Part shown: piece by piece, positions 1 to 23,926 of the stretch
Layout of the letters: each line of letters opens with the position of its first letter
Position numbering within the stretch: the stretch's first letter is position 1
NCBI GenBank assembly: GCA_010093995.1
Contig: ML992543.1
Span: forward strand, 1-38,182
Length of the DNA: 38,182 nucleotides
Reading direction: 5' to 3'
Source: Elsinoe ampelina
Lineage: Eukaryota
The notes under the pieces: model-generated
What the model saw: the letters and a program-made list of their open reading frames with translations, nothing else
Database searches by the model: none
What the model was told of the DNA's origin: nothing
Translations under genes and position numbers: made by a program

Positions 1-80
1 ATTGAAAGCAGGAAAGTAGAAAAACGTAGTTCTAATTCACTTCTAAGTACTTCTAAGTAAAAAAACCTCTAGGTCTATTT

Positions 81-110
81 CTAATGCAATCTAATGTAAT
101 CTAATGCAAT
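81..110 (+). repeat. 3x 10-bp tandem repeat CTAATGYAAT
   Basis: ctaatgcaat ctaatgtaat ctaatgcaat read directly. Confidence 0.8.
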
Positions 111-1513
111 TCCCTACGAAAAGTGTTTTCGTGACGTCTACTAGCCGTTTAACTATACTACGTAAACTAGATAGCTCTCTATTCGCTCTAATTCTCTCTA
201 CTAAAGTAGTATACTTCTCTTAGAAGTATACTATAATAGTATAGTTAGTATCTATTTCTATATTACGCTAGCTAATATAGTAACGAACGCCTCGAGATCT
301 ACTCCTCCCTCTAGTAGTACTCGCTAAGCTATTACGACTAATACTAGCGCTAGTCTCTATCTCTCTACTAGTACTACTACTAGTAGTAGATTCTATAATA
401 GTAGTAGTAGTATTAGTACCTTTAGCCTTCTTCTTCTCCTTCTTCTTTCCCTTATTATCTAACTAGTCCTCCTCGATCTAGTATAGGCCTTAGCGAGTAG
501 AAAGAGATATTAACTAGCGATTAAGATAAGTTACTTTAGCCTTAGTATTATTCTTCTCTACGCCCTTTAGCTTTTACTTATATAGCTCCTAAACCTCCTT
601 AATAAAGAAGTCTATCTATAGCTTTAAATCTAATATATTCTCTAAACTACTTAGATTATTATAATAGTACTACTTCTACTTCTTATACTAAGTACTAATC
701 TAGCCTTTAAAGGTATATATAAGGTAAGTATAATTCTTACTAGTCTTCTACCTCTAATTACTCCTTAGCTTCTTAAACTAAGCTAATAGAGGCTTACTCT
801 TTATAAGCGCTAGTCTAATCTCTTATACTATTACTAAGATTATCTTCTTCTAGGCCTCTAGCTAGTAAGTACTTAGCTTAGTACTAATACTTACCTTCTT
901 CTCCTTCTCTACTACTAGCGCTATAGCCTTCTACTTCTGCTTCTTCTTTAGTAGTGTCTCCTTTACTAGCTACTTCTACTTCTTTAAGATAATAGTAACC
1001 TCCTTCTCTTCCTTATTAGCCTTAGTATTCTTTTCCTCTAATACTACTAAGTCTACTACCTATAATAAATCCTAGTATACTACTAGTAGTATATATAAAC
1101 TTAAGGCTACTACTAGCAGCGTAGTAGGCTAAGTAATCTATATAGCTAGTAATAGTATTAGCTATAGAGGGAGCTATATTAATAAAGGTACTAGCGAGGC
1201 TAGTACTATCTACTCGAGTAGTTATAAGGCTTAAGGTTAGTACTAGAGAGGTAGTAGCTACGACAACTATACGCTACTATAACTACTATAGTAAGGGGAC
1301 AGTAGAGGCTATAATAATAGCTATAAATAAGGCTATAATTGCTAGTATCTAGCTAGATATTAGTACTACTATAAGTGCTCTATTTTACGTTACTTAGAGA
1401 GGTATAATAGCAAAATTTAATAATGCTAGCCTTAGAGGATAAAAGGTTGTCTAGATAGCCTTCTACTAACTCTAGCCTCTAGCCTCTTTAGTATATACTA
1501 TACCTCTTCTAAC

Positions 1514-1555
1514 AGCTAAATAGTTTATTTAGGTGCCTAAATAAACTATTTAGCT
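1514..1555. repeat. Perfect 20-bp inverted repeat with 2-nt spacer
   Basis: agctaaatagtttatttagg-tg-cctaaataaactatttagct; the arms are exact reverse complements. Confidence 0.95.
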
Positions 1556-2421
1556 CCTTTTACAGTTTAATAGCGTTATCTACTATTATCGATAGCGTGT
1601 CGACGGTTATTTAACAGTAGAGGATAGTTTCACGCTATTTCGCCGGAAGGAGGAGTGATAGCCCTTGGCTGAACAGACTGAACAGCTGCTAAAACCACCT
1701 ATTTACCGGGTCATCATTGTGCGGAGACATGCACGATTCAAAATGACTCTGCATCCAATCTAACAAGTGCACCTCCGAAGAAGCTTAATTTGCATGGTCG
1801 AGGAGGTGCCAATACTCCGTGAGGGACCGCGATCCCCCGAGGTTCCAGCCCCAGAGTTTGTGGGATTGCGACTCAGGTCACTCGGTGGCAGCTTCGAGCT
1901 TGAAGCTCTTGCGGGCGAGCCTGAATAAACAACACTCGAAGCGATATCAACACCGAGCCCTTTATCGCAGCGTCGTGCGACAAATATACCCAGCACTGAT
2001 CATGGATTGATCTGTCAATTTATCCGTCCTTAGCGTTCCTGGCGATATTCACTACTCCGGCTGTCAATCGTCTACCCATGAATCATTGTCCATAGAGACC
2101 AATGATCTTGCGCCGCTTTTCCGACCACTAGTCCTTGGATCCGCTGAAAGATATCAACTCGTCGTCCCTGTACCTGTTCGACCACACTATTCCCTTGACC
2201 ACGCCCAGCCCCCGAGGGCTGCCACGCTGCTCATCTTGCCTGGCGTCTGGGGTCCAAGGTAGATCATCCCCTCGCACACTTCCCTCGTGCGGCATGGGCA
2301 GAAGACTCGCTCACACACAACATCCTATTAAATCGTCTCCACCACTTTTTTTCTGCCTTTGTACTCTGCGGCCGAATGACTCCATGCGACAACTCAGGGA
2401 ATTCTCGGGCCGTCTTCCGAT

Positions 2422-14087: not shown

Positions 14088-17000
14088 CTACACATTCTCC
14101 GATCCCTCTTTGCTCTGCTCTTCCTTCCTAGTCGTGGATCGACCAGCCAATTCCGAGGCACGTCTCCACCATTTGTTCTTGTGTACTGTCTCACGCCGCT
14201 TGAAATTTGCCAACACACTCAGTATCGACTCTACCTTGAACGCAAAGACAAGCAACGGCACTACAACAGCCGCGGACATGGCGACTGATCATGTCAGCAG
14301 GTGGGATCTGGACAATCTGGAGGATCGGAATGCTAGCTTACATATGTACGTCGCCACAAAGCCCAGACTCAAGCTGCCATCGCGGCGGGGAAACTCTGCA
14401 ATGTCGAGATCAAAGAAAGACGCCATGAATGAGAGGGGAAGCTGGGGACTGGATTAGCACGATGAGAGTCTCCCGCCTACAAGGAGGCCGATCGAAGGTG
14501 CTGCTTACGAAGACTATCGTCACGGCGGTAAACACCATGAGCGTATTCGACTGCTTAGCCGCTTCGCGGGCGAGCTCGCGCTGCGCTCTGGCCTCGTCCT
14601 TGGCTGAGCGGGACTCCAGCAAGTTATTCATCTTCTGCTTAAGGTCGAGGAGATGGTTGAGCTATGTCGGACAAGAGATGAGCGGAGAATGGGCCTACTC
14701 GGGAAAGTCAAATTACTCACCATTGAATCAGTATCATTAGCATCGCGACACATTTGCTGGGCTGTTGAGAGGCATGATTTTACCTGCTCGACGTAACGCG
14801 GAGTGTAACCTTCAGGGAATCCATCTAGTACAGACAGCTGGTCCCGGCAGATAACGATGAGGGTCCCGAGCTCGTCGCGAACATCCTGGATTTGACGCTG
14901 GAGTTCGACTTCTTCTACAATACTGATGCTTCCTGGATCGAGTCCCTTCTCCTGCTGTTGTTCCATATCGGCGACTTGAAGGGCGAAACCTCGGAAGCAT
15001 TCTGCGTTTCGATCGGCCTGTTTAGTACGGTCAGTGGAGCTGTCAATGACCCTCTGGAGTCGCTTACGATTCTTCGAATTTCATTTTGATAGCACTCGAG
15101 GACATCGAGCTCAGGCGCTGGTGGCCGTTTCGGGTTGAAGAGGGCGGAGACACAGTCCTCTATTATAAGATCGCGCAAGTCGTAGATATCATCGACTGTG
15201 GGTAAGCGGCGAACGACATTGTTCAACACGTCTGTAATAGCTCGTTCCGAGGGCTCTCCCTTTGTTCCAATACTCCAGCGCTCAGGAAAGCAAGTGAGGA
15301 CGCACCTGTCGTCCAACTTCCACAGCCATAACTGATCGACCATCAATAATGGTGTATCTGTAAGTGGTGGATCTCGTTTGTGGAGGCGAGTAAGTGTCTG
15401 ATCATTGTCGCGGGTCGTGATGTCTCGCAGAGAGTAGTAGCGATACTGGTCCAGGGTGCAACGAAAATGGAGCGGGTTGTGTTCGGCGGCGTTGAGATAT
15501 TCATTTGCCAACACCGCGTACCTATCCGATGCCTGGACTGATGAAGAATTTCGATGTCCAGCAGCGATATATCCAAGAGCGTTTTCAATACAGTGTTTCA
15601 TCCTCAAAAATTCGGTGGTCGTCTCCCAATGCACGTATGGTACCTGGGCCTGTCAGATCGAAGCCCAGGCATTGCTCAAGCTCATCTCACACATAGCGCG
15701 CTTGATAGGAATGCATGTTGCGTTCCCTCGTCGTCCCATCTGGGACGTAACGGTGCAGTCGAGTCCCGAGAAGTCGCTCTACGGCTGCTGTGCCACTTGT
15801 CGCCGGGAAGCAAATCTGATCGCTTGACTGTCTGATGGAGCCTTTCGTACTGCAAAAGGAGGATCTATATGAGTCAGCTGTAGTGCGCATAACGGCTTGG
15901 GCGTACATCACCTCCACCCATGACATCTAGATTGAGGTCAGTATTATCTCAAAATCCAAAAAAAAAACCATTGATAGGTGACTCACGTTGTTCATTGGCA
16001 GGTGTATCCACGCGAAGTCCCTGCCACCGGTGTCTTGATTGACAGCTCTTAGGAACTCCGTTGAAAGGATTTGATCAACATTGACTTCCACCTTTTGACT
16101 AAATTCAGAGCCGTCGAATCGTGCTACAATACCCTTAAACAACCCGTCGACTTTCGTGGAGTGCAGGATAGGGGAGTCCCTCAACCTAGGATTTGCCTCC
16201 TCTGCTGCACGTAAGAGATGTACGGCCATGGCGTGTCCGGTTTCTAAGTTCCTCTGTCCACTCTGATACTTCCCTCCCTGATGGGTCTCAGCCAGCTGCC
16301 GTGCTGTCTGCCCATTCACGTTGCGTGTCCAGATATTGGGTTGTGCAGTTAGCAGAACGCTTATAGCACCATCCTTGCCGCTGGCAGCGGCCGCGTGCAG
16401 TGCAGTCTCCGACTTGTTATTGATTTGGTCCACGGGAGCTCGCCGCTGGAGTAATTCGTGGACTATCGAGACATGCCCCGCATAGGCAGCGAGATGTAGT
16501 GCTGTGTTCCCTTCTTCGTCCTTGAGATACGGTATCATGCCATGATCCAGCAGTAGACATAGTACCTCCCTATGACCCGCCGTTGCAGCCAGATGTAAGG
16601 CCTTCTTCTCGCTTTGTATAGTGTCCTTAGTCATGAGGCGCAAACAGTGCTCGACCAAGACTTTCAAATCAAGATAGCAAGCTACTCTGATCCTGCTGTA
16701 TTCCAGACTTGGAGGCAGAGGCAGGGGATTATGGCCAGCATATACGCTGAACCATAGCCAGAAAATCGGTTCGTCAGGTTGACAGAGCACTCGACATTGA
16801 TTCAGTAGATCGGATGCACTCTCAGCACTTTGAATGTGCGCAACCCATTGAGTAGCAGCATAGGAAAGGAAAGGCCAGCGCACCAGATAGTCGCGGACTA
16901 GCGCCGTTGAACCCGTAAAGGTCCCATTGAAAGAATGCCGGATGTTCTCAGTATCATTTGACAGCTCGACTGATAGCAAGTAATCTGTACAAATACGTGC

Positions 17001-18716
17001 CATGGTCCGATGAAGGGTGTGAGCGCTCTTGGGGAGGCCCGGACATTGATAGTTGCCAAAAAGAAAATCGCGTACTGAATCATTCGCCAATTGGACCCCT
17101 TGATCGTGACGGGAGATGAACGTTTGATCAAGGATGTCAAGAGCCCTATGACAATCGAAAGATCCGGTGTTTTCCCGTTCGACAATTATCTGAAGCTCCA
17201 TCGCAGTCAATGGCCGTTTAGCCACTGCAACGAACCCCAGCAGTTGTCTCGCTTGATCACTCAGCTGCTTCCATCGTCCGTTCAGTGTGAACGTCCGGTA
17301 TAATTCACTACGAATGATTGAGTCGAGCGAATCCTCCGTGGAGCTCTGCTCGATCACGTCCAACATACCTTTAGCAGAAGCGAAAGACCCTCCAGCGTTG
17401 TCGACAACTTGTGCTCTGAGTTCTGCAGTCTGCGCAATCGTCAAGTGCTGTTTCAGAACAATTTGACGCATACGCATGTCGAGTAATTCCTCCAATGCCG
17501 AAGTGGTAGCCTGTTCGACGTCGACACTAGTACACGCCCGACTCTCGCCAACAATCTCTTCCACAGGTCCCAGTAATGGACATAAAAGAAGAAGTTTGAC
17601 TTTCCCGGCTGGTAACGCACTCATCTTGATGATTTTCATCAATTCAGCTCTGACACCTCCGAGTTGGTATTGCGATGCTGCCTCTGGTTCGAGCTGAGAT
17701 CCCAGGTTGAGGAAGCAGAAGACCCTCTTCTCCCGGATGACCTCGAAAGCTCGAGCTAGGCACGTTTCTGCTCCCATCGTGATGTCAAGATCATTTAAGC
17801 GGTGATCAGGGTCTTGCTCGACTAGCTGGAGCAGCAGCTGCCACATTACAATGTTCTCATAGCGTCCAGCTCCGTCGAGATGGGTCAAGTATGACGTGAC
17901 CTGGTAGTCTTGTAGCAGGTCTCCAGCCAGGAAGTGCGCTAGCGACTGCAAACTACTATCAGTACCGCCAGACAACACCAGAATCTCGGGCGTCGTCGCT
18001 CTGGTCCAATCGAGGTACTGGTCGGTGGACAAGATCCAAGACCAAGTATCAGACTCAGTGGCCATAGTAATTGCCTTCCTACTTGGATTCGGGATTTTCC
18101 GCCGTAATGCACGAAGCATCTCGGCCCGTCTGACATTTGGTTCTGGTCCGTCCAGTGAGCTATCTGAGCTATCTGAAGGGGGACCCATTGGCCGAGGGAC
18201 TGTCTTGGGGTCGTAAGGATTGACGGATTGGCTCGTAGAGGGATGATGTGGGAGACGATCTCTGACCCACGAGATCCTGTCTGCGTCTTGGGTGCCATTT
18301 TGCGTGAGGTGGTGTCGATATCGAGGTCGAGCATGAACCAGTGCTCGATCGGAAAACTGAGGGCCGATGAACTCCTTCCCGGTGGAACTCAGAGGAAGAT
18401 AAAGTGATGAAGCCCTCCGACGACTACCAAAGGTGGCGCGACGTTGAACAGGCCGTACTGTTCGATCCAGAAATTCCGTGGACGAATAGCTGCCTGGACT
18501 GGACCTCCTTGGCATGTAAGAATAGTCCATTGCCGCAGGCTGATGCTCTGACTCGTTCGAGCTATTGTCGCTGCGGTGCAGCAAACCTTCCGATCTCAAA
18601 TCGTGCCCTTCATGGCGATCTTGCGTGCTGTTTCTGGAATAAGCGCTGTGGCGAATGCGCCGATAGACGACGTCGTCCTCGGCACCACTACTATTCCTAA
18701 TCCAATCAATTGACAT
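14088..18716 (-). CDS. Degenerate NACHT-like + ankyrin-repeat + CorA-like (2-TM) protein; complement(join(14088..14284,14342..14441,14509..14661,14721..15017,15068..15643,15691..15864,15912..15926,15987..18716)), ~1413 aa
   Basis: Seven 47-67-nt GT-AG introns join the ORF pieces in frame. NACHT-region motifs: WILSTDQYLDW, VAVAKRPLTAMEL, PFLSYAATQWVAH. Ankyrins: ALHLAATAGH, GNTALHLAAYAGH, ETALHAAAASGK, GQTARQLA. Fungal CorA-like motifs: WIHLPMNNMSWVE, PYVHWET, TLDQY, LMVDQLWLW, LLDLKQK, VFTAVTIVFLPLSF. The start codon and the intron-2 donor (GTGATG) are less certain. Confidence 0.85.
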
Positions 18717-19315: not shown

Positions 19316-20711
19316 CTACCCAGTCATCCTCTCCAGCTTCTCCGGCAACATCCCCAACCACGTCGGATCCTCAGCCACGAACAAGAAGACCTCGTCCCTG
19401 CCCCCCTGTATCGCATAATCCGCCCACGTCTCCAATGTCTCCGCCAGGATCCTATCATCCGCCATTACAATAGCCTTCCCCGCAACATCCGGGTCCATAG
19501 CAAGGAGCGGCGCCGTCTCGTCTAGCTCGGAATACCTCCTGATCGATGCCAGACTGATGACGCCGGAGTCGTTGGTGAACTTTGACTTTGCAAGGGAGGT
19601 GCGGACGACGGCGCGGAGAGCGTTGTGGTCGGAGGAGAAGATGTCGCGGAAGACGTGGCAGATGGAAAGCGAGATGTTGGGAGAGATATGGTGTGCGACT
19701 GCTGGGAAGAGCGGGAAGTCAAAGGCACTAGACGCCATCGGTGAATCCATCCTTGTACTACTGTCGACTGCTTCTTGCTTGATGACTTGAATTTCGTCGT
19801 CGTCGATGATGAAAGGGTGGCTTTGAATCCGTCACCTCAGGGTCATGACCGATATGCGGCTCGTTTGGAGCGCGTATAGCGTGCGGGCCTGTCTGTGGTG
19901 TTGAGGCGGTAGAGGAAGTGTCTGATGACACAAGATCGACGTCCGGATCGGAGTGGATGACGGAGATTGCTGATAGGCTGGAGGTGGAAGCTCTTCCAGA
20001 TGACATGGCAGTGTGGCGTTCGGAAAGTTTGGATAGAGGCGATATTGATGCATCGTCCACCATGGTGCCCAGCTGTCCGTCTATTCCAGAGTCCCTCTTC
20101 GCCGATAGTCGCAAGTATATCTTAGGGGATTCCCCTTCTGATGTCGCTGTGACTGGTCCGCTGGCTGTCTGATTTTCCAGAGCTTCTTGAGCATGCTTCG
20201 CATTCGAGGTCTTCAACCCCCTGACGCCTTTCCCAGAAATGAGAGCACAAGACGATAACAGCAATCGCTGGAACGCGCAGGTGTGATCGGGCTGCGATTT
20301 GACCGAGAAGGCGCACTGAATGAACGCAGGCGGCTCCGAACCCACAGGCCACTGTCCTGTGAATAATCTATGCAGCTTTTCATGCTTGCCTGACAACACG
20401 TCTTGTTCGACTTGCCAACGGACTTCTCTTCCTTGTTTGCTTTTGCCCTCAAAGCTTGCGAGATCGTGTTTGCCCGTCTTTCTAAGCCAGGCCGTACACA
20501 TCACCCTGCACAGCTGCTTCTTGATCTCATTGAACGTTGGCTCCTCGGAGGACCAGTTGAAGAATTTGCGGAAGAATAGAGCATTTCCTCTTCCGTTGAA
20601 GTGCCTGTAGCTCAGAAGACCAGTGTAGTCATCGGACTCCCATGAGAAGATATCGCGCGGCACAAAGTCCATCCAGGGTTTCCCCTTGACATTCGTAACA
20701 TTGTGTGCCAT
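19316..20711 (-). CDS. Uncharacterised two-domain protein, paralog B; split by a +1 frameshift near 19811-19817 (ORFs 19758..20711 and 19316..19750; ~464 aa if joined)
   Basis: The N-part aligns with the N-terminus of the 21144..23370 gene and the 144-aa ORF aligns with its C-terminal domain. The frame of the second ORF is open upstream of its ATG and overlaps the first ORF. Confidence 0.7.
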
Positions 20712-21143: not shown

Positions 21144-23370
21144 TTACGCCTCCGCAGCTCCGTAAGCGCTTACACCAGTCCACCACCACCACCGTCCTTC
21201 ACCATGCGCCCACACCCTCCCCAGCTCACGCCGCGCCTCTTCAGCCTGATCCACCTCATCAATCTCTCTAGCTTCCTCGACCTCCTCGATCTCCTCAACG
21301 CCCTCCCAATCCCCGTCCCCCACAAAACTCCACCCCCCGTTTTCAGCCTCATCCATGCCAAGCATATCCTCAAACCCATTCACCAACCCTGTGCTCACAT
21401 TAGTCTCACCCTCCACCACCTCATATTTCGCCAGTATACTCACTGATCCCAATCTCCCCCGCCTCCTCCCCCTCCCTCCCATACACCCACAGCGCCACCA
21501 CCCCCTTCCCCCTAAGCCTACACTGCGCCGCCCCCGCCCCCGCCAACATGGTCAACTCAACATTCCCCAACACCCCCCTCACATCCGCCCAATGCAACGG
21601 ATCGATAACATTAACCCCCTCTCCCTCCTCCAAGCCGACCAAGTCGACCAGGCGGTCGTAATCCAGCGTCGCGTGGTCGGTCATGATGTCTTGATTCGAG
21701 AGGATGGTTTTGGAGACGGAGCTTAGGCCGGCGCCGGAGGGGTCGAGAGCGAGGCGCGTGATGATGAGGCGGTAGGAGGCCGGGGTTTTGGAGAGGAGAG
21801 GGAGGTAGGGGTGGGAGGGGAGGAAGGAGTAGGGGTCTGAGACGGGGTGGAGAGGGGGCGGGAGGCCGAAGGTGGTATCGTAGGTCGGAGATGGGGGCGG
21901 GGTGGGCGTCGTGGCGGGGGCGATGCTGGGGGTCGTGTTGGTGGCGTTCTCGGTGCGGGGCTCAGGGGCTGTCACGTAGTAAGGCACAGGGTTTGGGTCG
22001 GGGGGAGGGTCGGTGGGGGAGGCGATGGTGTATCTTGGGACTTCTGCGGGAATGAAGTTCGTGGTCGGGTTGTCGGTGGGTATGGTGGTGAATGTTGGTC
22101 CGTTCCCAGTTGTGAAGCTTCTGTTTGGTATTTCGGATGCAGGTCTGGAGGTGATGAGTGAGTCGTTGGCGGATACGACGGTGTTTTTCGGCGCAAGTGC
22201 TGGCGTGGAGCCTGTGGTGGATGCGGTGTCAGGTCCTGGGCGCGTCCTTGGACATTGTCTAGCAGCAGGCTGGGCATTGTAGGCGGTCCAAGACCCAGAC
22301 GTGTACACATACTTCTGACCAGTACTCTCCCCAGTGTAATCGTCTGAGAAAGATCCCAAAGGTGGAGCTCTGCCCAGCTTGGTGCTGGGGCTTGTGATGA
22401 CCTCCGCAGTAGAAGTATCGGCTGCCGTCTTATCCGTAGCTTTGCCACTCTCGTGATTCGTCTCGGTGCCGCGCTTGGTGCCCGTCCTGTCGATAGGTAC
22501 ACGACTCGACTTCGTGATAGTGGCGACGTGAGGAGAAGTCGATGTCTTCCCCTTGACCGCGCGGGCCGTGTCGAAGCGAGACTTTGACTCTTGAACGACA
22601 GAGCTGCTTGGTCCTGGTATGACTTTGGTAGAGTTATCGATGCCATCTCCGCGTGCCTTACGTGATACGATCCCAGCAACGCTACTTCTTGTACGCCTGG
22701 CGGGTGGTCCCTCCTCTGGTGCGACACCATCGATCTCCCCGATACCGAATCGCTTGCGCTTCTGAGTTGTCATCTTGAAGGCAGAATCTCCAGCTTCCCC
22801 GGCGTCTGCGACAGGATCTTCGTCCTCAGTAGTCGGTGTGGAGGTCTTGACCTTCGGCTTCTTTGCGTTAGAAGCATTCTTGTCCCTGTGCTCCTTGGTG
22901 TATCCCTCAGCGATGAGACGCTGGACAGCAGATGCGAGATTGATATATGCGCTGGGGGAGAAAGCGCACTGGTCGAAGAAGGTCGGCTTCTGCGTGCCTT
23001 TCCAGCCGTTCATGACTGCGGTGTGGAGCTCGGTATGGCGACCGCTGATGATGTTGTGCTCGAGCTGGAAACGCGCCGTTTTGCCGTTGTTGCTGTATGC
23101 TAGGTATCCTTGGAGATCCGACTTGCCCTCGAGCTCCTCCCAAATGTCGCGGAGGGCGGTGTGGATGAGCTTGGCGACAGCGGCGAATGCTTCGTGAGGT
23201 TGACCGATAGTCCAATTGAAGAATTTGGCAAAGAACATGGCGTTGGGCTTGTGCTTGTCGCGGTCTTGCTTGAGGACTTCTCTGACTTCTTGGAGTGTCC
23301 ACGTGCTGACGTCGCGTTTGATGAAGTCGCGTGAATTCCAATCACGAGGAAGCTTCGTATCGCCAGCCAT
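21144..23370 (-). CDS. Uncharacterised two-domain protein, paralog A; complement(join(21144..21388,21444..23370)), ~723 aa
   Basis: A 649-codon ORF plus a 55-nt intron (GTGAGT...ACTAAT...CAG, 21389..21443) that joins an acidic last exon in frame. Folded-looking N and C domains flank an S/T/P-rich linker with NLS-like KKPKVK and KRKR. Confidence 0.8.
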
Positions 23371-23926
23371 GATAGCGGCGTGTGACTGATGCTGTATATG
23401 CCTCAGATGTGGTAGAGGCGCTGAGACGGCAGATGATGATGGAACTGGTCGAGGGTGTGTTTATTGTTTGCTGGAGGAGGTGATAGAAAGTGATGGGAAG
23501 TAGTTGGAGATGTAATTGATCAAGGTGCGACACGGTGCATCTTGACATGAGCCAGTCATATGCAAGATGGTAGTAAAGCAGGTAACCGAGGGAGCGGTAG
23601 ACGTGGTTCGACCCGAGCTGTCGGGTCCATCTCAAACGCCACCAGACAAAGGCATTCTTAAGGTTTGGAGCACTTGATCTCAGTGGTCAAAGAAACATGG
23701 AGAGAATACCTACCTTCTTGTAAACACAGAACAAAGAGAAACTATATCATTCAAAGACTGTTCGCTTGCTCATGTTAATCATAAGGGGTATCTATCATAG
23801 CTCAACTGCGGCCGACTCCCAGGATATCCGTGACGCCAGGTTAGCCATTATGCCCACTATTCAATGTTCCTCCCCGGTCAGTCTTGTACACTAACTTGCA
23901 GTTGAAATACGCTCAGCCCGAGTCTG

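What the first reader, a model, noticed from the sequence alone, without database searches (positions are those of the whole stretch)
14088..18716. NLR-like gene with an atypical layout: NACHT-like-ANK sensor fused to a C-terminal CorA-like membrane domain
Seen: the spliced model gives a disordered N-terminus, a NACHT-like/winged-helix region (~18070-16700), ~4 ankyrin repeats (~16700-16250) and a CorA-like domain. That domain ends in two TM helices (LMVFTAVTIVFLPLSFMASFF; FVATYIFAMSAAVVVPLLVFAF). The CorA GMN selectivity motif is replaced by DLD. Known: fungal NLRs normally have an N-terminal effector, then NACHT/NB-ARC, then ANK/WD/TPR repeats at the C-terminus. CorA folds oligomerise into channels, and a CorA homolog acts as a membrane effector in some bacterial type III CRISPR systems. 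Inference: this may be a single-chain sensor-pore for fungal non-self recognition or regulated cell death rather than a Mg2+ transporter.
Basis: partly seen in the sequence, partly recalled or inferred. Interest (0 to 1): 0.75.

Follow-up and report, generated by a model that had tools for sequence, protein, structure and literature searches.

The report
P-loop-dead NLR fused to CorA-fold channel
A grapevine fungus makes one protein that joins an immune-receptor-type sensor, whose ATP switch has lost its catalytic motifs, to a complete ion-channel-type membrane domain; relatives with an intact switch recur across filamentous fungi, which hints at an unstudied kind of receptor that carries its own channel.

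Summary
The gene is real. It has eight exons and encodes 1,413 aa. One transcript contig splices all seven predicted introns. Exon 1 alone encodes the NACHT-like part, the ankyrins and the start of the CorA domain, so the fusion is not a gene-model artefact. Residues 847-1348 fold as a whole CorA/ZntB domain (top 7 hits, Z 13.6-14.9). Residues 220-632 are T-NACHT-derived.

(1) Both Walker motifs are gone here, while 8 of 8 same-architecture relatives keep GK[ST], so this copy cannot be an ATP-switched NLR. (2) Loss of GMN is family-wide (GMN in 2 of 99 scored rows) and so says nothing special about this gene.

The architecture is tabulated but not discussed in PMC12258605, and this scan found it before on other DNA (e1-7860566). 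Best reading (0.45): a ligand-gated CorA-fold channel of a non-self or stress pathway with a nucleotide-independent sensor arm. Channel activity, toxicity and immune role are all untested.

The parts
14088..18716 (-). Whole gene: 8 exons, 1,413 aa; low-complexity N-terminus + pseudo-NTPase T-NACHT + ANK + CorA-fold domain
15987..18716 (-). Exon 1 (aa 1-910): carries the N-terminus, NACHT-like region, ankyrins and the first ~60 aa of the CorA-fold domain in one frame
18072..18716 (-). S/R/P-rich N-terminal extension (aa 1-215); no Pfam match; much shorter in most relatives
16647..18071 (-). T-NACHT-derived module (P-loop alpha/beta core, helical domain, winged helix, helical linker), aa 216-690; profile match aa 220-632
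17946..17969 (-). Degenerate Walker A (aa 250-257); the GK[ST] position is occupied by S255-L256-Q257
17694..17723 (-). Degenerate Walker B (aa 332-341); both acidic positions of hhhhD[GAS]hDE are lost (N337, S340, Q341)
16191..16697 (-). Ankyrin repeats (about 4 plus a cap), aa ~674-842
14235..16178 (-). Complete CorA/ZntB-fold domain (cytosolic alpha/beta funnel, stalk helix, TM1, loop, TM2), aa ~847-1365, spread over all 8 exons
15912..15926 (-). 15-nt micro-exon (exon 2)
   Evidence: table 5c
14412..14550 (-). TM1 (aa ~1302-1325, split by intron 6); family-conserved pore residues kept
14403..14411 (-). D1326-L1327-D1328 at the GMN position; D at the first position occurs in 1 of 99 scored rows (this protein)
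14235..14369 (-). TM2 (aa ~1340-1365, split by intron 7); incomplete in the database model, complete in the spliced transcript

Best explanation
A member of a widespread, uncharacterised Pezizomycotina family of ankyrin-CorA-like membrane proteins that has acquired a T-NACHT module at its N-terminus; in this copy the NACHT has lost nucleotide binding. Shown: the fusion, its splicing, the complete CorA fold, the loss of Walker A and B, and intact-switch relatives. Inferred: (1) like CorA/Mrs2, the C-terminal domain forms a membrane homopentamer whose TM1 lines a pore gated from the cytosolic funnel; (2) the non-GMN filter makes it something other than a canonical Mg2+-uptake channel, a job this genome can leave to its GMN-bearing Alr1-like genes; (3) the NACHT-ANK arm sits on the funnel and holds it shut until a partner or foreign protein binds the ankyrins; (4) in relatives an ATP switch would drive the release, but here it must be steric and nucleotide-independent; (5) the output is a cation flux or depolarisation serving a non-self or stress response, possibly cell death. 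The channel supplies its own oligomerisation, which would explain why the NTPase is dispensable.
For: Single exon joins NACHT, ANK and the CorA start, and the transcript contig is fully spliced. AF2 model pLDDT 87, pTM 0.83; top 7 fold matches are all CorA/ZntB/CmaX, Z 13.6-14.9, 227-284 residues aligned, next unrelated row Z 10.3. 73 of 83 family-conserved columns are kept, including the TM1 pore residues. 8 of 97 relatives have NACHT-ANK-CorA with GK[ST] intact; 6 of the 8 have no room for an N-terminal effector. The link arose at least twice (one clade rejected, p-AU 0.0025). Other relatives carry HET, WD40, cullin or ubiquitin-like partners. The genome has separate GMN-bearing CorA-family genes and an NB-ARC NLR flanked by two CorA-like genes. 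A CorA-like gene is a polymorphic candidate vegetative-incompatibility gene in Morchella (PMC8940278). CorA-type proteins are defence effectors in type III CRISPR systems (PMC11229360, PMC13294483).
Against: No experiment on any member was found in the 10 paper searches listed in the full report. The P-loop is required in the plant NLRs tested in PMC9975942, so a dead P-loop may mean loss of function rather than a new mode. The CorA domain is somewhat more diverged than the family median (73 vs 78 conserved columns; rank 29 of 101 from the bottom), with changes in otherwise conserved stalk residues. No allele variation was seen (0 other letters in X3; one contig, possibly the same strain). The neighbours are housekeeping genes, not an immune cluster. 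The Morchella gene is only a mapped candidate and was not shown here to be of this family. CRISPR CorA has a different cytosolic fold.
Confidence: 0.45

Rival explanations
1. Ordinary divalent-metal channel or transporter (Mg, Zn, Co or another ion) of the ANK-CorA-like family. The NACHT part is a vestigial passenger from an ankyrin-mediated fusion and is decaying.
For: NACHT is highly diverged (best relative 25% identity, E 1.7e-10) with both Walker motifs lost, while the channel part is much better kept (35-37% to its closest relatives). 82 of 97 relatives have ANK+CorA by Pfam and only 8 have NACHT. Position 3 of the filter stays polar (N 35, D 32 of 99) and the acidic loop with E-F-P is kept. 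Top fold matches include ZntB and CmaX, which have non-GMN filters (recalled).
Against: The 400-residue NACHT fold is kept without frameshift or stop and is transcribed. NACHT-CorA fusions with intact switches recur. The genome already has GMN-bearing genes.
Confidence: 0.27
2. Integrated-decoy or guard sensor. The CorA-like part is bait for (or a copy of) a guarded host membrane protein, and the P-loop-dead NLR signals through an unlinked helper NLR rather than through its own pore.
For: C-terminal non-canonical domains in Sordariales NLRs are discussed as possible integrated decoys, and CorA is among those tabulated (PMC12258605). A conserved NACHT-less ANK-CorA paralogue exists in this genome. 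A dead NTPase fits a sensor-only role.
Against: The CorA part does not group with the genome's own paralogue but with the CorA parts of other NACHT fusions (SH-aLRT 95.4), unlike the CHK-2-like kinase decoys of that paper. The whole pore, stalk and TM2 are kept. No partner NLR is adjacent.
Confidence: 0.18
3. A relic: a once-functional NLR-channel fusion that is now non-functional and drifting, still transcribed.
For: Loss of both Walker motifs; a filter residue unique among 99 rows; long terminal branch (0.90-1.09); no close orthologue found.
Against: 4,242-nt frame with no stop, seven correctly spliced introns including a micro-exon; no RIP signature over the gene; 73 of 83 conserved columns kept.
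Confidence: 0.1

Closest known systems
Fungal T-NACHT-ankyrin NLRs (TLP1-like NACHT; Pfam NPHP3_N), including the CorA-bearing entries chafim-1_g6473 and chalep-1_g4548 in supplementary file 5 (sheet S3) of PMC12258605
   Same: NACHT-type core, winged helix and ankyrin repeats in NLR order; the listed entries have the same T-NACHT-Ank-CorA order.
   Different: No N-terminal effector domain; Walker A and B lost in this copy; the paper tabulates CorA (4 NLRs) but does not discuss it in the section on non-canonical domains.
CorA/Mrs2/Alr1/ZntB/CmaX (2-TM-GxN) divalent-cation channels
   Same: Whole fold: cytosolic alpha/beta funnel, long stalk helix, TM1-loop-TM2; acidic loop ending in a hydrophobic residue plus Pro, like the MPEL motif.
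   Different: 8-13% identity for the top 7 matches; GMN replaced family-wide; fused to ANK and NACHT; pentamer and ion flux not shown.
Pezizomycotina ankyrin-CorA-like proteins (database-annotated only; e.g. 949-member ESM Atlas cluster; A. nidulans AN6960 listed as WD-ANK-CorA in PMC5371717)
   Same: Same C-terminal module and family motifs.
   Different: NACHT-derived N-terminal half (8 of 97 relatives), here catalytically dead.
CRISPR-associated CorA effector (type III-B and III-D2)
   Same: CorA-type TM domain used as a ligand-gated defence effector: a precedent for the proposed output.
   Different: Bacterial; gated by SAM-AMP through an N-terminal domain of a different fold; no NLR; no homology to this protein was tested.
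Morchella importuna mimpvic32 (PMC8940278)
   Same: Fungal CorA-like-domain gene, polymorphic (92.6% allele identity), mapped as a vegetative-incompatibility candidate.
   Different: About 770 aa, no NACHT or ankyrin reported; candidate only; its sequence was not compared here.

Membership tests
Fungal NLR (T-NACHT type) | NACHT-type STAND domain with helical and winged-helix subdomains | tested here: met
   Profile match aa 220-632, 77.8 bits; ESM Atlas NPHP3_N 0.96, 216 of 256 features; 71 relatives at E<=0.001, of which the 5 scanned are all NPHP3_N-ANK proteins; alpha/beta plus helical secondary structure in the model, pLDDT 73
Fungal NLR (T-NACHT type) | Walker A GK[ST] | tested here: not met
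   S255-L256-Q257 at that position; 8 of 8 same-architecture relatives and 45 of the 46 NACHT relatives that cover the site have GK[ST] (25 of 71 do not cover it); sequence confirmed in DNA and spliced contigs
Fungal NLR (T-NACHT type) | Walker B hhhhD[GAS]hDE | tested here: not met
   N337-L338-G339-S340-Q341 (motif definition from PMC12258605)
Fungal NLR (T-NACHT type) | Repeat sensor (ANK, WD40 or TPR) after the NOD | tested here: met
Fungal NLR (T-NACHT type) | N-terminal effector or amyloid signalling domain | tested here: not met
   No Pfam match in aa 1-215 at E<=0.05; no dedicated amyloid-motif search was run
Fungal NLR (T-NACHT type) | Ligand-induced oligomerisation and cell death | not testable with these tools
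   needs experiment
CorA/Mrs2/Alr1/ZntB superfamily | Cytosolic funnel domain plus stalk plus two C-terminal TM helices | tested here: met
CorA/Mrs2/Alr1/ZntB superfamily | GMN (GxN) selectivity filter after TM1 | tested here: not met
   DLD here; GMN in 2 and GIN in 3 of 99 scored rows; role of GMN from PMC3629940 and PMC11919701 passages
CorA/Mrs2/Alr1/ZntB superfamily | Homopentamer | not testable with these tools
   the complex tool takes at most 4 copies and 1,000 residues
CorA/Mrs2/Alr1/ZntB superfamily | Mg2+ or other divalent-cation transport | not testable with these tools
   needs experiment
Pezizomycotina ANK-CorA-like family (database-level) | Family motifs in the cytosolic domain and TM1 (columns at least 80% conserved) | tested here: met
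   73 of 83 columns kept; ESM Atlas 0.92 to a 949-member cluster, CorA in 91% of members
NLR with integrated decoy | Integrated domain is a close copy of a host single-copy protein | tested here: not met
   The CorA part groups with other NACHT fusions, not with the genome's paralogue
CRISPR-type CorA effector | Nucleotide second-messenger-binding N-terminal domain and type III CRISPR context | not tested
   Eukaryotic gene; only ankyrin-type matches in PADLOC for P0002; no direct comparison run

The most novel reading that the evidence does not exclude
NACHT-ANK-CorA proteins are a class of all-in-one fungal immune receptors in which the effector is a C-terminal CorA-fold ion channel, not an N-terminal enzyme, HeLo or amyloid domain. 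Because the channel oligomerises by itself, the NTPase switch can be lost, as it is here. The wider ANK-CorA-like family and NLR-adjacent CorA-like genes would then be an unrecognised channel arm of fungal immunity, parallel to the CorA effectors of bacterial CRISPR defence.
Probability: 0.3. Interest if true: 0.85.

Novelty: new variant of a known kind. Interest (0 to 1): 0.55.

Why it matters
Known fungal NLR effectors sit at the N-terminus. A recurrent NLR with a complete CorA-fold channel at the C-terminus and no N-terminal effector would be a new output route for fungal immunity, and a eukaryotic parallel to the CorA effectors of type III CRISPR. It would also change how CorA expansions in fungal genomes are read: the two papers checked treat them as Mg2+ uptake, yet 97 of 99 scored members of this family lack GMN. 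This P-loop-dead copy is a natural test of whether such a receptor needs ATP. If the transporter or relic rival is right, it is a modest annotation result.

Tried and rejected
Complex prediction of two copies of aa 851-1348: no verdict (ipSAE 0.01, mark 0.32; the alignment was not used). This is not evidence either way. Fold searches of the NACHT-ANK model were filled by ankyrin proteins, so no solved NACHT structure was matched; inconclusive. Sequence searches of the PDB gave ankyrins among the rows shown and nothing significant for the NACHT part (best E 0.18). Pairwise BLASTP of the NACHT part against P0011 was marginal (E 0.001). The word-indexed search with aa 215-700 found only the protein itself. 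No RNA holder is on record in the run list. Runs X4 and X5 did not cover the gene, which shows nothing. Rejected: two separate genes (exon 1 spans the junction); the database C-terminus (the transcript removes intron 7); an assembly error or hidden intron at Walker A (DNA and spliced contigs agree); RIP damage (TpA/ApT 0.48-0.67 over 14-20 kb against 2.18 at 1-2 kb); a single origin of all nine NACHT fusions (p-AU 0.0025; 46 rows chosen by me from 100, fast search, 2,000 RELL replicates). Horizontal transfer is not claimed: the nearest relatives are Sordariales proteins at 35-37%, and no rooted test was run. Hits for 'cora' in PMC4986451, PMC12881547, the A. fumigatus preprint and PMC10684091 were 'coral' or author names. 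The genome-wide NPHP3_N count and a Foldseek search of the CorA model got no answer, so both remain open.
Full report
Gene model. The window is contig C43 of a 28.3-Mb fungal assembly. The first homologue search labels the encoded protein as Elsinoe ampelina BDZ85DRAFT_270281, 'partial'. I built the minus-strand model from splice signals: eight exons, seven GT-AG introns of 47-67 nt, 4,242 nt, 1,413 aa, no internal stop. It equals the database protein P0002 for 1,348 residues; P0002 then reads into the last intron and loses most of TM2. Relatives P0006 and P0007 match the extra exon. Run X3 has one 6,126-nt contig covering 20647-14138 with six listed joints. Five are single introns of my model; the sixth spans two introns with the micro-exon letters between. 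There are no other letters. X3 is from another sample and study than the possible DNA source, and its RNA status is the tool's guess, though the splicing shows it. Caveat: the contig also runs unspliced through two upstream ORFs, so it cannot by itself prove one transcript. The fusion does not depend on it, because exon 1 encodes aa 1-910, which includes NACHT, ANK and the first strands of the CorA domain.

C-terminal domain. Pfam sees only aa 1203-1341, below the cut-off (24.6 against 27 bits). An AlphaFold2 model of aa 847-1348 on a 67-row alignment has pLDDT 87.2 and pTM 0.83. Against 48,161 PDB representatives its top seven matches are ZntB (3ck6, Z 14.9, rmsd 3.2, 227 aligned), T. maritima CorA (5jrw, Z 14.7, rmsd 16.7, 284), CmaX (7nh9, Z 14.5, rmsd 3.7, 254), M. 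jannaschii, C. jejuni and E. coli CorA, and full-length ZntB. The next row is Z 10.3. The high rmsd of full-length matches probably reflects the angle of the long stalk (inference). So the domain is a complete CorA fold that starts directly after the ankyrins.

Family. A search with aa 850-1364 returned 97 relatives among 8,000 scored candidates; all named ones are filamentous ascomycetes. By precomputed Pfam, 82 have both ANK and CorA, 9 CorA only, 6 ANK only, and 8 also have NPHP3_N. The ESM Atlas places the domain beside a 949-member Ascomycota cluster (0.92). N-terminal partners among 19 relatives scanned include NACHT, HET, WD40, cullin and a ubiquitin-like domain. At the GMN position, 99 of 101 rows could be scored: ALD 17, TIN 12, AIN 11, AIP 11, GMN 2, GIN 3, DLD 1 (this protein). 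The loss of GMN is thus a family trait, and only the aspartate at position 1 is peculiar. GMN forms the Mg2+ filter, and its mutation impairs function in CorA and Mrs2 (passages of PMC3629940 and PMC11919701). The genome has seven other CorA-profile matches: six ORFs of which five show GMN in the fetched stretch and the sixth is Alr1-like and cut before the filter, plus one NACHT-less ANK-CorA paralogue with TIN. The query keeps 73 of 83 columns conserved in at least 80% of the other rows (median 78; rank 29 of 101 from the bottom), including the TM1 residues. The ten changes include R1035C and four in the helix at 1205-1211.

N-terminal half. Pfam NPHP3_N is weak (E 0.02). A profile built from the NACHT regions of the eight relatives, which were selected by their CorA part, matches aa 220-632 at 77.8 bits. 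The ESM Atlas gives NPHP3_N at 0.96. A full phmmer scan of 1.84 billion representatives finds 71 relatives, the best at 25% identity; the five of them that I scanned are NPHP3_N-ankyrin proteins. The model shows a P-loop-type alpha/beta core followed by helical and winged-helix elements (pLDDT 73), but fold searches were filled by ankyrins. The new point is that Walker A reads S-L-Q where relatives have G-K-[ST], and Walker B has lost its acidic residues. All 8 NACHT-ANK-CorA relatives, and 45 of the 46 other relatives that cover the site, keep GK[ST]; 25 of the 71 do not cover it. None of the 71 carries the channel domain. This copy is therefore a pseudo-NTPase (inference from motifs). Residues 1-215 have no Pfam match, and six of the eight relatives have Walker A at residue 59-68. 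The lack of an N-terminal effector is thus typical of the architecture.

History. In a tree of the CorA part (46 rows that I chose from 100; 503 columns) the query joins four Naviculisporaceae/Rhypophila NACHT fusions (SH-aLRT 95.4), not its own genome's paralogue. One clade of all nine NACHT fusions is rejected (p-AU 0.0025); eight without the lichen protein P0016 is not (p-AU 0.082). The search was the fast mode with 2,000 replicates (wider FastTree, P0042 dropped for coverage). So NACHT and CorA were linked at least twice, or swapped. The locus has no RIP signature and lies among housekeeping genes: amidase, importin-beta, PP2C, a Zn2Cys6 factor and Spt20.

What is in print. Ten full-text searches were run, five of them for CorA together with NLR, NACHT, ankyrin or incompatibility terms in fungi and two more with looser terms. 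I found no study of this architecture. PMC12258605 (passages, sections 11 and 14, supplement searches; files 13-17 not searched) lists four Sordariales NLRs with CorA, two of them T-NACHT-Ank-CorA, out of 4,613, and does not mention CorA in its section on non-canonical domains. PMC8940278 (passages, section 15) maps a polymorphic CorA-like gene as a vegetative-incompatibility candidate in Morchella, without functional proof. PMC3897900 and PMC10694956 (passages) read fungal CorA expansions as Mg2+ uptake. PMC5371717 (passage) lists a WD-ANK-CorA gene; PMC12720139 (passage) lists a Zn2Cys6/CorA-like gene. PMC11229360 and PMC13294483 (passages) describe CorA as a ligand-gated defence effector in type III CRISPR, with a cytosolic domain of a different fold. 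PMC7475262 (cyanobacterial caspase homologues) and PMC8195603 were seen only as search listings and may bear on CorA in cell-death architectures. Subscription papers and bioRxiv supplements are outside the library.

Earlier scan notes. e1-7860566 reports the same architecture in a lichen fungus; my own searches agree that it recurs. e1-7558503 reports an NLR flanked by two CorA-like genes in this genome. I confirmed an NB-ARC ORF with TPR-like exons between two GMN-bearing CorA-like genes at C1 1.944-1.955 Mb, but not its recurrence in other fungi.

Mechanism and verdict. Shown: an expressed fusion of a nucleotide-dead T-NACHT-ANK arm to an intact, non-GMN CorA-fold domain, with intact-switch counterparts in several other ascomycetes. 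Inferred: a pentameric pore, gated by the cytosolic arm, with cation flux as the output of a non-self or stress pathway (0.45). Rivals are a metal channel with a vestigial NACHT (0.27), a decoy sensor working through a helper (0.18) and a relic (0.10). It works like an inverted NLR at most in its relatives; this copy fails the Walker A and B tests for NLR membership and the GMN test for a Mg2+ channel. It is a new variant of a tabulated but unstudied architecture; interest 0.55.

Noticed in passing
window 19319-19750 and 19761-20711 (- strand): Two ORFs (144 and 317 aa from the first ATG) directly upstream, with no Pfam match, covered unspliced by the same X3 contig as the NLR-CorA gene; they may be overlapping transcripts or a polycistronic-looking RNA. 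A 301-nt contig of run X4 differs at 22 listed sites in the 144-aa ORF (9 amino-acid changes in 18 changed codons in that frame, no stops), which fits a coding, divergent allele or relative.
   Followed up: partly
window 19761-20711 and 21424-23460 (- strand): The 317-aa ORF is a tandem paralogue of the N-terminal part of the next ORF upstream (30% identity, E 4.6e-21); neither has a Pfam match.
   Followed up: partly
L012 (G000:C1:1943000-1952999) and L006: CorA-like gene with GMN, then a gene with an NB-ARC ORF and TPR-like exons, then a second CorA-like gene with GMN, all on one strand. A separate NLR-CorA link in the same genome, from a different CorA-like subfamily.
   Followed up: partly
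L010:5756-9187 (G000:C1, about 15-18 kb from the contig start): Single-exon 1,143-aa ANK-CorA paralogue without NACHT, filter TIN; sits in a conserved, short-branched clade and is probably the ordinary family member.
   Followed up: partly
P0042, P0009, P0010, P0088: The same CorA-like domain is fused behind HET, WD40, cullin and ubiquitin-like domains in other fungi; P0042 also keeps a NACHT winged-helix remnant.
   Followed up: no
window 1-2000: AT-rich stretch with a RIP-like signature (GC 0.33-0.40; TpA/ApT 2.18), probably a mutated repeat at the contig end.
   Followed up: no
window 14088-14284 with P0002: The public protein model retains the last intron and so lacks most of TM2 and the tail; the spliced contig shows the intron is removed.
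   Followed up: yes
L014 (G000:C1:2236522-2239980): The nearest in-genome relative of the NACHT part is an ordinary NACHT-ankyrin ORF with an intact P-loop (E 8e-5).
   Followed up: no
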